Notes: generated by a model not told the origin, from the sequence alone. 64,000 nt of DNA from Candidatus Helarchaeota archaeon (GCA_019058315.1 JAHPZH010000002.1:1293910-1357909); one strand, 5' to 3'; counted from the stretch's first letter, positions 26,030 to 42,599 are shown. Translations and numbers: made by a program.

Positions 26030-26800
26030 TTATTGGGTTTGAATTAATTGATGTAATTCTGGTAAAAATATGTCACTTTTTTGAGGTTCTGAAAGTTTTT
26101 CAGTTATAGAAGAAATCTTTCTTCCAGGAATGCTTATTTCCAGTGGAAAATCTTCTTTTCTTATTTCCCCTGAACAAATATATCCAAATTTAAATGTATT
26201 TTTAGCCAATTCTGGTATAATTTTCCAAATTTGATAAATATTTTTATCTTTAGTTTCCAAAGTTGTTTGTATTGATTTTGGCATCTTTTTAATAATTTTC
26301 AAATCTTTAGGAATTAATTCTTTAATAAAAAGTTCTGAAACCGATTTATAAAATTTTAAGTAAAAACTAACGATTTTTTCGTTTTTTTCTATATTAGGTT
26401 CAACAATCTTTACTATATCCACTATAGGTTTATTTTTATTCTTAGCTTTAACTGAAACTTTATTAAGTATGTAATAATTAGGTTCAATTTCGATTTTTGG
26501 CACTACAACCGGTTTGGGTATTGGTTTTATTTTGTTCTCTTTTCTTTTAACCTTTTTTACTTTTACAGGTTTAATTTTTTCGGGTTTTACCTTTTTTACT
26601 TTGATTTTAGTAGGTTTTATTTTAAATGTTTTTTTTAATCTCAAAGCTTTCCAAATTCGTTTATATGCAGCAAATGTAGATTTGGTAATGTAATGCTTAT
26701 TTGATTCGTTGAATTCTTTAGCATTCTTATAATCAAATGGATCTATCTTATCTATAACAAACCATCTTTTTTCATAATTTGATCTAGTCTTCCTATTCAT
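26030..26800 (-). CDS. Protein with Lys-rich linker and C-terminal 'FGYICSGE' beta-sandwich domain
   Basis: C-terminal ~150 aa homologous to the C-termini of 26820-28385 and 36888-42599. Confidence 0.85.
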   Translation of the reverse strand: MNRKTRSNYEKRWFVIDKIDPFDYKNAKEFNESNKHYITKSTFAAYKRIWKALRLKKTFKIKPTKIKVKKVKPEKIKPVKVKKVKRKENKIKPIPKPVVVPKIEIEPNYYILNKVSVKAKNKNKPIVDIVKIVEPNIEKNEKIVSFYLKFYKSVSELFIKELIPKDLKIIKKMPKSIQTTLETKDKNIYQIWKIIPELAKNTFKFGYICSGEIRKEDFPLEISIPGRKISSITEKLSEPQKSDIFLPELHQLIQTQ

Positions 26801-26819
26801 GTCTTATATCCTGCAATAT

Positions 26820-39800: not shown

Positions 39801-42599
39801 GCAGACAATTTTCCTTTAGAAGAAAACTTAACTATATCTATCGATAATGTCTCCTTATATATTAGTCGAACCATTATAATACCTCCTGATCTAAGTTCAT
39901 TATTGCTATTATGGCCAGTAACTAATCCTAATTGGATGATTTTCTTTTTAATTATAATGATTATTGTCTTTTCTATCCTTTTTTCAGCATATCAGACATA
40001 TTATAGATATCCACCTACGGTTAGAACACTTAGAAAGCTTAGAAAAGATATAAAGGGAAATAAATTTGATAAACCAGCATCAGTTAAAACTAGAGAAAAT
40101 TTAATACAAAATCATTTAGATAAGAAATTAAAAGGATTTGCTCTAAAAAAAGCCCCTGAAATAGATACATCCAAATTGATAACCAACGCAATGATAAATC
40201 AAATTGCTTCTGATATATTATCCCAAGTACCTCATGAAAAACTTGCTAATATAGATGCTTCTAAGTTATCTTCTGAAGAAATGAAGCCTATTACTACCAA
40301 TTCTTTAACAAATGCTTTGAAATCTATGTTACCAAAAAGTAAAATGCTTGAAATTGATCCTTCTACATTATTGACATTAGCAGTTTTGAATGGCATTGCC
40401 AATGCTATAAAATCCCAGTTGCGAAAAAAAGAACCTGAAGTGGAAAAACCTGAAATAACTGATGAGATGATAAATAAAATTGCAGCCGATTTAATAGCTC
40501 AAGTATCTCAAGAAAAACTTGTTGATCTAGATGCATCTAAACTATCTTCTGGAGAAATGAATAATATAATTACAAATTCTTTGAAATCATTGCTACCAAA
40601 AAGAAAAAGATTGGAAATTACCACTGCTCAATTGTTAACCGTCGATGTTTTGAATAAAATTGCCAGTGCTACACAATCCCAATTAAAAGAAAAGCCTGAG
40701 GAAGAACTTGAACCGTTAACAGATCAAATGATAAATAAAATTGCAGCCGATTTAATAGCTCAAGTACCTCAAGAAAAGCTTCTTGATCTGGATGCGTCTA
40801 AACTATCTTCTGGAGAAATGAATAATATAATTACAAATTCTTTGAAGTCATTGTATCCAAAAAGAAAAAGGCTGGAAATTAATACTGCTCAATTATTAAC
40901 TGTCGATGTTTTAAATAAAATTGCGAGTGCTACACAATCCCAACTAAAAGAGAAACCTGAAGAAGAACTTGAACCGTTAACCGAAGAAATGATAAATAAA
41001 ATCGCTGCTGATGTAATCTCTCAAGTTCCTCGCGAGAAACTTCTTGATATTGATGCTCTTAAATTATCTTCTGAAGACATGGATTATATAATTACAAATT
41101 CTTTAAAATCATTATATCCTCAAAGAAAATTGCTTGATATAGATATTGCGAAATTATTATCTGTAGATGTTTTGAATAAAATTGCCAGTGCCATAAAATC
41201 CCAACTAAAAGAAATACCTGAAGAAGAAGTTGAACTGATTACAGATGAAATGATAGATGAAATAGCTGCTGATTTAATGAATAAGTTTCCTCAGCAAAAA
41301 CTATCCCGTCTAGAACCCTCCGATTTGAAAACTAAAAAAATTAATAAAATAATTGTAAAAAATTTGAAATCTATGTTACCAAAGGAAAAATTTGCTAAAA
41401 TCTCTGATGCAATGAACGATGATTTTTATGATAACCTTATTAATTCTATAAAATCTCAACTTCCAAGAGATAGATTACTTGATTCATTTATTGCTGAAAT
41501 GATAACTGAAGAAAATGTTAATAGAGTTGCCAACGACTTATTATCTCAGGTACCCAAGGAAAAATTAAACGATCAAAATAAAGAGGCATTATTATCCGAG
41601 GTAACGGAGGAAAAAATAGAAAGTATTATAGAATCCATTTTACCAAGAGAAAAAATTCTTGAATTGGATACCTCTAAAATAATGTCTGATGAATTTATTC
41701 ATAAAATTGCTAATACTATAAAAACTCAGCTTCCAAAAGAAAAACTTCTGATATTTGATACATCTGAAATGTTAACTGAAGAAGTTTTTAATAAAATTAT
41801 CGATCGAATAAAAGCCCAACTTCCAAAAGAAAAATTACTTGAATTAGATACATCCGAATTATTGACTGACGAAATGAAAAATGTGATCTCAAATGCAATA
41901 AAAGCTCAACTGCCAAAAGAAAAACTACTTCAAATAGATCCAACTGAACTTCTAACCGACGAAATGATAAATGGGATTGCAACCGCCGTTATAACGCAAC
42001 TTCCAATAGAAAAGCTACTCGAGCTTGACACATCCGAGTTATTGACCCAGGAAACGATAAATAATATAAATAATGCTGTTAAAGATGAGCTAATAAAAGT
42101 AAAACCACCATTACCAGAGCTCACTTCATATATTCTTACTAAAGTCAATATTAGACTTAAAAAGAAAAAGAGACCTTTAGTAGATATTTTAAGATTTGTT
42201 GAACCAAACCTTCAATTTAATGAGAAATTAATTACTTTTTATCTTAAATTCCGTGCTTTTGTACCTGAAATTCATATTAAGGAAATTATTCCTGAGAATT
42301 TAAAAATCAAAAAACAAATACCATTCCTAGTACCTAGAGAAGTTCAAAAAACTGAAGATGGAAAAACTATTCAAATCTGGAAGATTGTTCCAGAACTTGC
42401 TCGAGATACTTTTGAATTTGGATATATATGTTCAGGAGAAGGAATTGAAAACGAATTTCCATTTGAGATGGAAATACATGGTATGGAGATATCATCTGCC
42501 AAAGAAAAGCAAAAAGAGTTGAAGAAAACAGAAGTTTTTACCCCCAATTTTCATGAATTAATTCAAAAATATAAAGAAACAGAATATAAGGAGATCTAA
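36888..42599 (+). CDS. Giant multi-pass membrane protein: two surface modules, cytoplasmic helical repeats, C-terminal 'FGYICSGE' domain (likely ATG at 36921)
   Basis: Duplicated QWxKNPxFxSPI...ISIDNV modules rich in N-x-S/T; four hydrophobic segments; tandem repeats. Confidence 0.9.
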   Translation: MLKNKQGKGICMKTNKKILFSILMAFNTFCSLISFFNMNSLFLLNNLSGINGINSNSEIFNLHSDNYQITEQWLKNPTFDSPISPNWTPTTSGELTDFELLGGSGLANYTVIGEQGTEIFERNFSESGWIKMHNPDFPSYPSEVKATSFEGIDSDGILANHSWDETVGDQVGQDPSVLWKRNESFTKDMSDYEISSASITAVFNVSADSNIDRENDPEGNSGYTWDHVLFFIKLSDINASRNYLVAYYQFENDTTLNDTYMKTFHEENLIFYLSSIFEQGTDFTITVGINFFCEDNMDPQDTDTWYYARIKSLNLTFSYKKIINQDTRGYWIQTSDKLNVTGKNFEIDEAKLYFQYRVDPSWPIESPNSEFIIKVNNNTYSETIKLSNLPNTLEEARINGFDVKHLLVKYDNVSVSLEVSLADTFNLSTNKTISIDNVRLNITLTVLEEKSKRKPPSLILPTSGEDWTWLIILLSILLTAIMLAQGIYTFRVKRPPMIRKIRKLKKRIKKNNLKNPVQVQKRSTIIQRVLSYKLKSSHFAYASKPLKPKVEKKLKQKRPKKEGNLKLLLFFALFAFLLFIISSSAITNGSLDPNILPAIRNFILPKNSNFDLQSKDTHETKQWIKNPLFNSPINQYWSTSKGGDLTDMELTEDTGYVNYVVMGDNRTENYINNPPEINNWTMVHDPDHPTFPNETLSGTENAWSGIVGDGAFSNHSWREGGPNQLGQDPSVLWKRNITLPVNFTDYEITSASLSTNINASPLSNVENAGDGSYQGRGDYVRFFIRVSDLSGNITYEIANYLHEGDSDLSDTPMNNVTDTDLMFFLSSVLQEDGYNFTLTMGINFWCEDNEGTDNDEWEYTYIKEFNLHFTYHKKINQFTYARWDQVGDRLNGRDFRINEAKLYFQYKTDTNWTHYSNNSEFRIVINSSTHSETIKLTLANSTFQDAKFIGFDVTNLMIKNDNIRVSLEVYIADNFPLEENLTISIDNVSLYISRTIIIPPDLSSLLLLWPVTNPNWMIFFLIIMIIVFSILFSAYQTYYRYPPTVRTLRKLRKDIKGNKFDKPASVKTRENLIQNHLDKKLKGFALKKAPEIDTSKLITNAMINQIASDILSQVPHEKLANIDASKLSSEEMKPITTNSLTNALKSMLPKSKMLEIDPSTLLTLAVLNGIANAIKSQLRKKEPEVEKPEITDEMINKIAADLIAQVSQEKLVDLDASKLSSGEMNNIITNSLKSLLPKRKRLEITTAQLLTVDVLNKIASATQSQLKEKPEEELEPLTDQMINKIAADLIAQVPQEKLLDLDASKLSSGEMNNIITNSLKSLYPKRKRLEINTAQLLTVDVLNKIASATQSQLKEKPEEELEPLTEEMINKIAADVISQVPREKLLDIDALKLSSEDMDYIITNSLKSLYPQRKLLDIDIAKLLSVDVLNKIASAIKSQLKEIPEEEVELITDEMIDEIAADLMNKFPQQKLSRLEPSDLKTKKINKIIVKNLKSMLPKEKFAKISDAMNDDFYDNLINSIKSQLPRDRLLDSFIAEMITEENVNRVANDLLSQVPKEKLNDQNKEALLSEVTEEKIESIIESILPREKILELDTSKIMSDEFIHKIANTIKTQLPKEKLLIFDTSEMLTEEVFNKIIDRIKAQLPKEKLLELDTSELLTDEMKNVISNAIKAQLPKEKLLQIDPTELLTDEMINGIATAVITQLPIEKLLELDTSELLTQETINNINNAVKDELIKVKPPLPELTSYILTKVNIRLKKKKRPLVDILRFVEPNLQFNEKLITFYLKFRAFVPEIHIKEIIPENLKIKKQIPFLVPREVQKTEDGKTIQIWKIVPELARDTFEFGYICSGEGIENEFPFEMEIHGMEISSAKEKQKELKKTEVFTPNFHELIQKYKETEYKEI
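40170..42090 (+). repeat. Intragenic 261-bp (87-aa) repeats followed by 90-bp (30-aa) repeats
   Basis: ATGATAAAT/GAT anchors at 40467, 40728, 40989, 41250; then DTSELLTDEM...QLPKEKLL units x5. Confidence 0.92.

What the first reader, a model, noticed from the sequence alone, without database searches (positions are those of the whole stretch)
26030..42599. A shared ~150-aa 'FGYICSGE' domain ends three different proteins
Seen: 26030-26480, 26820-27280 and ~42124-42580 align along their length: Y(I/V)L(N/T)K...P(I/L)(V/L)(D/E)I.(K/R)..EPN....E....FY(L/I)K....E(L/I).IKE.IP...Q(I/V)WKI(I/V)P.....F.FGYICSGE....FP.E..I....F.P..H. It is fused to a polybasic tail, to two more Ig-like domains, or to a membrane-anchored stalk. 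The IKE.IP...WKI pattern resembles MHD subdomain B and DUF11-like sandwiches. Inference: it is a homotypic or heterotypic docking module that recruits soluble subunits to the membrane anchor. I cannot name a family for it.
Basis: seen in the sequence. Interest (0 to 1): 0.78.

Follow-up and report, generated by a model that had tools for sequence, protein, structure and literature searches.

The report
Portable C-terminal beta-sandwich domain in Asgard proteins
Three proteins in one locus of an Asgard archaeon (probably Helarchaeales-like) end in the same unnamed, cytoplasmic ~155-residue beta-sandwich, a diverged DUF11/CLIPPER-type Ig domain with its own conserved tail helix, which is probably a portable protein-binding end-piece whose partner is still unknown.

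Summary
P0001 (256 aa), P0002 (521 aa) and P0003 (1903 aa) end in one ~155-aa domain, 44-50% identical. These are the only three copies in the 5.8-Mb genome.

The domain has no Pfam family and no relative by sequence in the PDB. It is not an orphan fold. Profile comparison (91% probability, E 9.5e-7) and BLAST (E 1e-7 to 4e-8) link it to the last beta-sandwich of the neighbouring muHD/DUF11 protein family (P0004). That domain scores just under the DUF11/CLIPPER cut-off.

The domain adds extra strands and a tail helix (hydrophobic-x-P-x-hydrophobic-H). The tail proline is the only invariant residue.

It is cytoplasmic and always at the C-terminus. It occurs only in Asgard archaea, on five scaffolds. 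One, found here, is multi-TM plus HEAT repeats.

The 520-aa carrier always follows a coiled-coil protein, and two natural fusions join them.

Most genomes have a single carrier, so docking between different carriers cannot be the domain's general role. Docking is untested; the one complex prediction gave no verdict.

Best reading: a portable ear-like binding module with an unknown partner.

Structure matches (Z up to 8.1) tie muHD with many other beta-sandwiches. The scan has not noted this on other DNA.

The parts
26033..26503 (-). Domain copy 1: C-terminal 157 aa of P0001
   Evidence: Alignment A1; genome search E 4.8e-78
26823..27293 (-). Domain copy 2: C-terminal 157 aa of P0002
   Evidence: Alignment A1; E 3e-80. 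AF2 models give an all-beta domain plus a terminal helix
42105..42596 (+). Domain copy 3: C-terminal 164 aa of P0003, at the end of the cytoplasmic tail
   Evidence: Alignment A1; E 4.4e-79; topology
26030..26800 (-). P0001, 256 aa: conserved ~60-aa N-terminal domain, polybasic KP-rich linker, then the domain. It starts 19 nt after P0002 ends
   Evidence: Orthologues P0011, P0014 and P0015
26820..28385 (-). P0002, 521 aa ('520 family'): N-terminal alpha/beta region, two beta-sandwiches, then the domain. This is the oldest and most widespread carrier
36888..42599 (+). P0003, 1903 aa: two duplicated sequon-rich outside modules, four hydrophobic segments, an ~700-aa cytoplasmic helical-repeat stalk, then the domain
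   Evidence: Orthologues P0007 and P0017
33261..33668 (-). Last beta-sandwich of P0004 (residues 585-720): the closest relative of the domain outside its own family. It lacks the tail helix
   Evidence: hhalign 91%, E 9.5e-7. BLAST E 1.6e-7 and 4e-8. DUF11 24.0 bits
33258..35420 (-). P0004, 720 aa: multi-sandwich protein that scores for DUF11 and, marginally, for Adap_comp_sub (muHD)
   Evidence: Multi-copy and present in all five closest genomes
28429..30798 (-). P0006, 789 aa coiled-coil protein. Its family always sits directly upstream of a 520-family gene and is fused to one in P0016 and P0012
30922..33195 (-). P0005, 757 aa: helical N-terminus plus a Gtr1/RagA-type GTPase. Locus context only

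Best explanation
Shown. The three stretches are paralogous copies of an unnamed domain found only in Asgard archaea. It is always at the C-terminus and sits in the cytoplasm. Its core is an Ig-like beta-sandwich of the DUF11/CLIPPER kind, homologous to the last domain of the neighbouring muHD/DUF11 protein family (P0004). It adds N-terminal strands and a C-terminal extension: a variable charged linker, then a short helix with the motif hydrophobic-x-P-x-hydrophobic-H.

Inferred. It works as a portable protein-binding end-piece, an 'ear' on a tether. It connects whatever scaffold carries it to one shared cytoplasmic partner. The known scaffolds are:
- a soluble 520-aa protein paired with, or fused to, a coiled-coil protein;
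- a small polybasic protein;
- the cytoplasmic end of a giant membrane protein with a helical-repeat stalk;
- in other Asgard lineages, a multi-TM HEAT-repeat protein.

In this genome the three carriers would converge on, or compete for, the same target. The most likely target is a component of the co-encoded coiled-coil/GTPase/muHD-like module. The tethered tail helix either packs on the sandwich or is itself the recognised element.
For: - Paralogy: 44-50% identity, and only three copies in the genome.
- Range: 19 representatives among 1.84 billion proteins, the domain C-terminal in every one, plus further carriers. Names given by sources are all Asgard: Helarchaeota, Promethearchaeota, Sifarchaeia.
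- Fold: two AF2 models (pLDDT 76.7 and 79.5) give about ten strands and a terminal helix.
- Homology to the P0004 last domain: hhalign 91%, E 9.5e-7 over 87 columns, with the most divergent member left out. BLAST E 1.6e-7 and 4e-8. One P0004 homologue carries a YICSGKG motif. The P0004 last domain scores 24.0 bits for DUF11, and P0023 scores E 2e-3 for DUF11.
- Cytoplasmic location: P0001, P0002 and P0004 have no hydrophobic segment. P0003 has four, conserved in its orthologues. Its two outside modules carry 17 and 16 N-x-S/T sequons; the loop and the 879-aa tail carry none. The loop has 27 K+R against 2 D+E.
- Modularity: membrane anchor, helical repeats and this domain occur together in two unrelated scaffolds, the giant P0003 type and the multi-TM HEAT type.
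- Constraint: the tail proline is the only invariant column across all architectures, and the histidine is nearly invariant. Between P0003 and P0007 the domain is 87% identical, against 58% overall.
- Link to the coiled-coil protein: the two genes are adjacent in the window, in both operons of L004, in L006/L007 and in L008. P0016 and P0012 are natural fusions.
- GTPase nearby: in the window, L004, L006/L007 and the P0018 contig.
Against: - No partner has been identified and no binding has been measured or predicted.
- The HEAT-type carriers have no GTPase, muHD or coiled-coil genes nearby and share no neighbours with the window. A universal partner, if there is one, is therefore not encoded next to them.
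- The fusions and the synteny tie the coiled-coil protein to the whole 520-aa protein, not to its last domain in particular.
- The domain is not always the best-conserved part: between P0002 and P0013 it is 59% identical, against 66% overall.
- Canonical DUF11/CLIPPER domains are stalk spacers, so a purely structural role remains possible.
Confidence: 0.45

Rival explanations
1. The domains bind each other, homotypically or heterotypically, so the soluble carriers P0001 and P0002 dock onto the identical domain at the tip of the membrane-anchored P0003.
For: Three carriers, one of them membrane-anchored, lie in one divergent locus. Paralogues within the genome keep 44-50% identity and many identical surface-type motifs. 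Beta-sandwiches often pair through edge strands (general knowledge).
Against: - Heterotypic docking cannot be the ancestral or general role. Most genomes have one carrier: G305, G307 (rated 100% complete) and G308 have only the HEAT type, and G020, G021 and G028 only the 520 type.
- In L009 the giant's four-gene operon has no 520, muHD or coiled-coil genes within 10 kb.
- The tree shows that the carrier types diverged long ago, so this is not recent copying within the locus.
Confidence: 0.2
2. It is a structural end-cap or spacer, or a module that contacts the membrane or lipids, with no specific protein partner. That would match the stalk role of canonical DUF11/CLIPPER repeats.
For: It is homologous to DUF11-type sandwiches, and the CLIPPER preprint (10.1101/2025.04.25.650565) describes those as stalk domains. 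Many copies are basic, pI 8.6-9.7. P0001 pairs the domain with a polybasic linker.
Against: - It is a single copy, always at the extreme C-terminus, never in tandem.
- The P0002-type copies are acidic, pI 5.2-6.6, so charge is not conserved.
- The conserved tethered tail motif and reuse on unrelated scaffolds suggest a specific function.
- In P0003 it sits about 700 residues from the membrane.
Confidence: 0.15
3. It is an ordinary extracellular CLIPPER/DUF11 adhesin domain displayed on the cell surface.
For: Weak sequence links to PF01345. Most known DUF11 proteins are surface proteins.
Against: - P0001, P0002 and P0004 have no signal peptide or hydrophobic segment.
- An even number of membrane segments, the positive-inside loop and the lack of sequons place the P0003 tail in the cytoplasm.
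- The Lys position in the first strand is not conserved.
- The neighbours are GTPase, coiled-coil and TPR proteins.
Confidence: 0.03

Closest known systems
DUF11 / CLIPPER domain (Pfam PF01345, E-set clan; PDB 9IFR)
   Same: It has an Ig-like beta-sandwich and shares the sequence pattern hydrophobic-K/x-D/E-x-hydrophobic-P ... W ... Y-x-hydrophobic-x-G. It is homologous by transitivity through the last domain of the P0004 family.
   Different: - None of the window's three copies scores against the Pfam model.
- It is cytoplasmic, single and terminal, not tandem in secreted adhesin stalks.
- It has extra N-terminal strands and a C-terminal linker plus helix.
- The first-strand Lys position of the isopeptide pair is not conserved.
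- 9IFR ranks only 35th in Foldseek (E 0.019).
Mu homology domain of AP mu subunits, delta-COP and muniscins (PF00928, PF10291)
   Same: It is a cytoplasmic beta-sandwich. muHD chains are among the best structural matches: Z 7.4-8.0, rmsd 3.0-3.4, 109-119 residues aligned. The neighbour P0004 scores just above the Adap_comp_sub cut-off.
   Different: - It is one ~155-aa sandwich, not the two-subdomain ~260-aa muHD.
- It matches neither PF00928 nor the muHD-scoring part of P0004 by sequence or profile.
- The Z values tie with unrelated sandwiches.
Adaptin appendage ('ear') and GAE domains
   Same: The working logic may be alike: a beta-sandwich at the far end of a flexible or solenoid scaffold, which in eukaryotes serves as a hub for short motifs. 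The HEAT-plus-terminal-sandwich order of the HEAT-type carriers recalls trunk plus ear. Structural matches: gamma2 ear Z 6.8-7.5, GGA2 GAE Z 6.3-7.1.
   Different: - There is no sequence relation.
- The Adaptin_N hits of the HEAT carriers are below cut-off (24-26 bits against 37).
- Those carriers have 7-9 membrane segments, which adaptins lack.
- No motif binding has been shown.
Cohesin modules of cellulosomes
   Same: A beta-sandwich is reused on several scaffolds as a docking unit. Several cohesins match at Z 6.4-7.1.
   Different: Cohesins are extracellular and bacterial and bind dockerins. No dockerin-like partner is known here, and the resemblance is at fold level only.

Membership tests
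DUF11 / CLIPPER (PF01345) | Match to the Pfam model at or above its gathering score (24.6 bits) | tested here: not met
   P0001, P0002 and P0003 have no DUF11 hit. The best family member, P0023, scores 18.8 bits. The related last domain of P0004 scores 24.0 bits.
DUF11 / CLIPPER (PF01345) | Homology to a domain that scores as DUF11 (superfamily level) | tested here: met
   hhalign of the family profile against the P0004-family last domain: 91.3%, E 9.5e-7, 87 columns. BLAST E 1.6e-7 and 4e-8.
DUF11 / CLIPPER (PF01345) | Ig-like beta-sandwich of seven to nine strands | tested here: met
   AF2 models are all-beta with about ten strands and one helix. All fold matches are beta-sandwiches. This rests on models only.
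DUF11 / CLIPPER (PF01345) | Isopeptide triad: Lys in the first strand, Asn in a late strand, catalytic Asp/Glu (not universal in the family) | tested here: inconclusive
   The acidic residue of the IKE-x-IP motif is nearly invariant. The first-strand Lys position is S, Q or E in P0019-P0022, and no conserved late-strand Asn was seen in the alignments.
DUF11 / CLIPPER (PF01345) | Secreted or cell-surface context, usually in tandem repeats | tested here: not met
   No signal peptide; cytoplasmic by topology; a single terminal copy in every carrier.
Mu homology domain (PF00928 / PF10291) | Match to the Pfam model | tested here: not met
   None of the three proteins, and none of the 19 aligned domains, has a hit.
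Mu homology domain (PF00928 / PF10291) | Elongated two-subdomain all-beta structure of about 250-280 residues | tested here: not met
   The domain is one sandwich of about 155 residues.
Mu homology domain (PF00928 / PF10291) | Structural match that stands above other folds | tested here: inconclusive
   mu2, mu1 and delta-COP score Z 7.4-8.0. A chitin-binding domain (Z 8.1), GPI-transamidase (7.8), pilins and cohesins tie with them.
Adaptin ear / GAE | Structural or sequence match that stands above other folds | tested here: inconclusive
   gamma2 ear Z 6.8-7.5 and GGA2 GAE Z 6.3-7.1, which are tied values. Foldseek TM-scores are 0.19-0.27. A PDB search with the full-length P0002-family profile (A2) gives the AP-1 gamma1 ear at E 0.46, on the middle sandwich rather than this domain. 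The domain profile gives no PDB hit.

The most novel reading that the evidence does not exclude
The domain is an archaeal counterpart of the eukaryotic appendage ('ear') logic. It would be a terminal beta-sandwich hub that couples membrane-anchored solenoid proteins (the giant receptor-like P0003, and multi-TM HEAT proteins in other Asgard lineages) and soluble adaptors to a coiled-coil/muHD-like machinery switched by a Rag/Arf-like GTPase. That would make the locus a membrane-associated adaptor system of Asgard's own, built from a domain shared with the muHD-like protein family.
Probability: 0.12. Interest if true: 0.85.

Novelty: new variant of a known kind. Interest (0 to 1): 0.5.

Why it matters
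Asgard genomes hold many small GTPases and trafficking-like domains. According to Tran et al. 2024 (PMC10933270), GTPase genes in the cultured strain MK-D1 generally do not sit in operons with their likely regulators, so partners are hard to guess. This domain gives a handle on that problem. One recognisable end-piece marks a soluble adaptor, a small basic protein and two kinds of membrane-anchored helical-repeat protein. It shares ancestry with the terminal domain of the Asgard muHD/DUF11 proteins, whose mu C-terminal domain match Eme et al. 2023 (PMC10307638) reported. Finding what the domain binds would show which Asgard membrane proteins are wired to which cytoplasmic machinery. It also defines a new Pfam-type family with clear boundaries and a diagnostic tail motif.

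Tried and rejected
- **Complex prediction.** The P0003 domain with the P0002 domain, each given as a 19-row alignment, scored 0.02 against a mark of 0.32, so there is no verdict and the controls were not run. This says nothing for or against binding.
- **Family and structure searches.** Pfam gave nothing for the three proteins or the 19 domains. A PDB sequence search with the domain profile gave 0 hits at E <= 1. Foldseek against the PDB gave nothing at E <= 0.001 for the domain model. The ESM Atlas gave only generic sandwiches by shape (TM 0.45-0.58) and weak DUF11 leads by features.
- **Internal comparisons.** hhalign of the domain against the other P0004 domains and the two middle sandwiches of P0002 was not significant.
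- **Neighbouring genes.** The window's 361-aa and 530-aa genes downstream of P0001 are not related to the 366-aa and 634-aa families that follow the 520 gene elsewhere. The HEAT-type loci share no neighbours with the window.
- **N-terminal domain of P0001.** It has no Pfam hit and no Atlas hit.
- **Genome-contig scan.** One locus was returned, titled only 'uncultured archaeon'.
- **Literature.** 'Asgard' with 'mu homology domain' or 'Adap_comp_sub' found 0 papers.
- **Model coordinates.** They were not available to scripts, so conserved residues could not be mapped onto surfaces.
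Full report
**1. Observation**

Three ORFs carry the feature:
- P0001: 26030-26800 (-), 256 aa.
- P0002: 26820-28385 (-), 521 aa.
- P0003: 36888-42599 (+), 1903 aa.

Their last ~155 residues align without large gaps. Identity is 44-50%, with 46 invariant columns. A profile of the three finds exactly these three places in the window's 5.8-Mb, 12-contig genome, at E 3e-80 to 5e-78, and nothing else. The observation and its coordinates are confirmed.

**2. Organism and setting**

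The window is about 30% G+C. It encodes CDP-archaeol synthase and a CODH/ACS operon. Close homologues are named 'Candidatus Helarchaeota archaeon' by their sources. Single-contig genomes of 4.4 and 6.0 Mb are listed as 'same class'. Their sizes fit the cultured Lokiarchaeia; that inference is mine, not a tool result.

The minus-strand gene run is:
- P0004, which scores for DUF11 and just above cut-off for Adap_comp_sub (33.1 bits against 31.6);
- P0005, a helical N-terminus plus a Gtr1/RagA-type GTPase (86.6 bits);
- P0006, a coiled-coil protein;
- P0002;
- P0001, 19 nt after P0002;
- two genes with no Pfam match.

The plus-strand run is a 268-aa protein, P0003, a TPR protein and a 373-aa protein.

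**3. What the domain is**

- No Pfam family matches any of the three proteins.
- The domain profile has no sequence relative in the PDB.
- Two AF2 models (pLDDT 76.7 for the domain alone, 79.5 for whole P0002) agree on about ten strands followed by a short helix.
- Fold searches give only middling, tied matches. Foldseek finds nothing at E <= 0.001. VIA-align gives Z <= 8.1, with muHD chains, chitin- and cellulose-binding modules, GPI-transamidase, pilins, cohesins and adaptin ears all within one Z unit.

The fold is therefore a common Ig-like sandwich. Structure alone does not single out muHD.

Sequence gives the real link. With the most divergent member left out, the family profile matches the last sandwich of the P0004 family at 91% probability, E 9.5e-7, over 87 columns. 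It matches none of the other P0004 or P0002 domains. Direct BLAST gives E 1.6e-7 (P0001 against a 601-aa P0004 homologue) and 4e-8 (P0023's terminal domain against P0004 residues 598-706). A phylum-wide scan with the domain profile picks up the last domain of 600-730-aa P0004 homologues as its weak hits. One such homologue even reads YICSGKG at the signature position. The last domain of P0004 scores 24.0 bits against DUF11/CLIPPER, cut-off 24.6.

So the domain is a diverged DUF11/CLIPPER-type sandwich that shares ancestry with the terminal domain of its own neighbour. Compared with that relative it has extra N-terminal strands and a C-terminal extension. The extension is a variable charged linker followed by the motif hydrophobic-x-P-x-hydrophobic-H and a short helix. 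P0004 lacks this extension. Across all architectures the tail proline is the only invariant column, and the histidine is nearly invariant.

**4. Where it sits in the cell**

P0001, P0002 and P0004 have no hydrophobic segment. P0003 has four, conserved in its orthologues. The two large modules between them carry 17 and 16 N-x-S/T sequons; the loop and the 879-aa tail carry none. The loop has 27 K+R against 2 D+E. The tail, and the domain at its end, are therefore cytoplasmic. This sets the domain apart from the canonical CLIPPER domains of secreted adhesin stalks.

**5. Distribution and architectures**

An exhaustive profile search of 1.84 billion representatives found 19 proteins, with the domain at the C-terminus in every one. 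Five architectures carry it:
- the ~520-aa family;
- small polybasic proteins;
- giant four-segment membrane proteins;
- fusions of the coiled-coil protein with the 520 protein (P0016, P0012);
- a type found with the larger profile: 7-9 membrane segments, HEAT repeats, then the domain with its tail (L012, P0027-P0032), annotated 'PDS5' in Promethearchaeota and Sifarchaeia assemblies.

The Adaptin_N hits of the HEAT type are below cut-off (24-26 bits against 37), so I read them only as HEAT repeats.

The combination of membrane anchor, helical repeats and this domain thus arose on two unrelated scaffolds. A tree groups the 520-type copies together. It places the small proteins P0014 and P0015 beside the 520 group and leaves P0001 unresolved near the giants, which fall in two groups. 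The carrier types are therefore old, not recent copies within the locus.

**6. Context elsewhere**

In L004 and L006/L007 the arrangement is muHD-like (714 aa), coiled coil (884 aa) and 520-type (527-529 aa). It faces a second operon of coiled coil (553 aa), 520-type (528 aa), 366-aa and 634-aa proteins and an Arf/Ras-like GTPase. L008 keeps the run coiled coil, 520, 370 aa, 627 aa. The contig holding P0018 has the GTPase next door. The coiled-coil gene precedes the 520 gene in every context seen except the most divergent member, P0023. The two are fused in P0016 and P0012.

The giant's four-gene operon is conserved in L009, but there it is not next to any 520, muHD or coiled-coil gene. The HEAT type is followed by a ~290-aa gene and has none of these neighbours.

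Within the window's order the P0004 family is present in all five genomes searched, in several copies. The 520 family was found only in G000 and G123. It was not found in G128, which is in the same family and 94% complete.

Genomes other than G000 show one carrier each. These include G307, rated 100% complete, which has only the HEAT type.

**7. Mechanism**

Shown: a conserved, portable, cytoplasmic, strictly terminal sandwich with a tethered tail motif, reused on soluble and membrane-anchored scaffolds.

Inferred: it is a binding end-piece for a shared cytoplasmic partner. In this genome three carriers would meet at the same target, most plausibly within the coiled-coil/GTPase/muHD-like module.

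Heterotypic docking cannot be the general role, because most genomes have a single carrier. The one complex prediction gave no verdict and is not used as evidence.

**8. Novelty**

Eme et al. 2023 already reported Asgard matches to the mu C-terminal domain and other adaptor domains, 'not fused to each other'. I found no description of this domain family, its tail motif or its modular spread. I rate it a new variant of a known kind: a new family within the Ig-like E-set/DUF11 superfamily, with an unusual location and deployment. Its function is still unknown.

Noticed in passing
P0016 (1075 aa) and P0012 (918 aa), metagenomic proteins: These are natural single-ORF fusions of a P0006-like coiled-coil/winged-helix protein with a full 520-family protein. 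P0016 residues 218-558 match P0006 residues 445-780, and residues 558-1075 match P0002 residues 6-521. This is Rosetta-stone-type support for a P0006-P0002 partnership.
   Followed up: partly
L012 (G305:C68), P0027-P0032; L023, L024: These Asgard proteins of about 800 aa have 7-9 membrane segments, HEAT repeats and the same terminal domain with its tail motif. Sources annotate them as 'sister chromatid cohesion protein PDS5', which looks like a mislabel caused by the HEAT repeats. A ~290-aa gene of no known family always follows them.
   Followed up: partly
P0011 (349 aa), orthologue of P0001: About 70 residues are inserted in the loop right after the FGYICSG motif. I read the insert as a winged-helix-like segment from the sequence alone and did not test it. 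The loop therefore looks exposed and tolerant of insertions.
   Followed up: no
window 30922-33195 (-) and 28429-30798 (-): The helical N-terminus of the Rag-like GTPase protein P0005 and the N-terminus of the coiled-coil protein P0006 both match the N-terminus of the 553-aa coiled-coil protein of L004 (E 7e-10 and 2e-8). The GTPase protein thus seems to carry a module of the coiled-coil family.
   Followed up: partly
window 40456-41278 and 41807-42062 (+): Inside the P0003 stalk there are tandem DNA repeats of 261 nt (3.2 copies, 85% matches) and 90 nt (2.8 copies). The stalk is built from ~30-aa helical units and its length may vary between strains.
   Followed up: no
window 36888-39950 (+): The two outside modules of P0003, each with its membrane segments, are an internal duplication (P0007 residues 549-1092 match P0003 residues 1-551 at 41%). 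They match no Pfam family above its cut-off and carry about 4 N-x-S/T sequons per 100 residues.
   Followed up: partly
G128 (same family as the window's genome, 94% complete): The 520 family and the domain were not found, while at least four P0004-family paralogues are present. The domain-bearing system is patchy even among close relatives.
   Followed up: partly
window 18711-19775 (+): A 354-aa protein matches the IFT52 GIFT domain (PF23355, 61 bits) and ABC_transp_aux.
   Followed up: no
window 421-4641 (-): Five ORFs of 257-263 aa lie in tandem. The three that were scanned have no Pfam family. They may be a paralogous array.
   Followed up: no
window 44670-45737 (-) and 45807-46871 (-): Two adjacent ~355-aa proteins give weak hits to CXXCXGXG-type zinc-finger families (DnaJ central domain, BSD2). 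They bound the locus on its right side.
   Followed up: no
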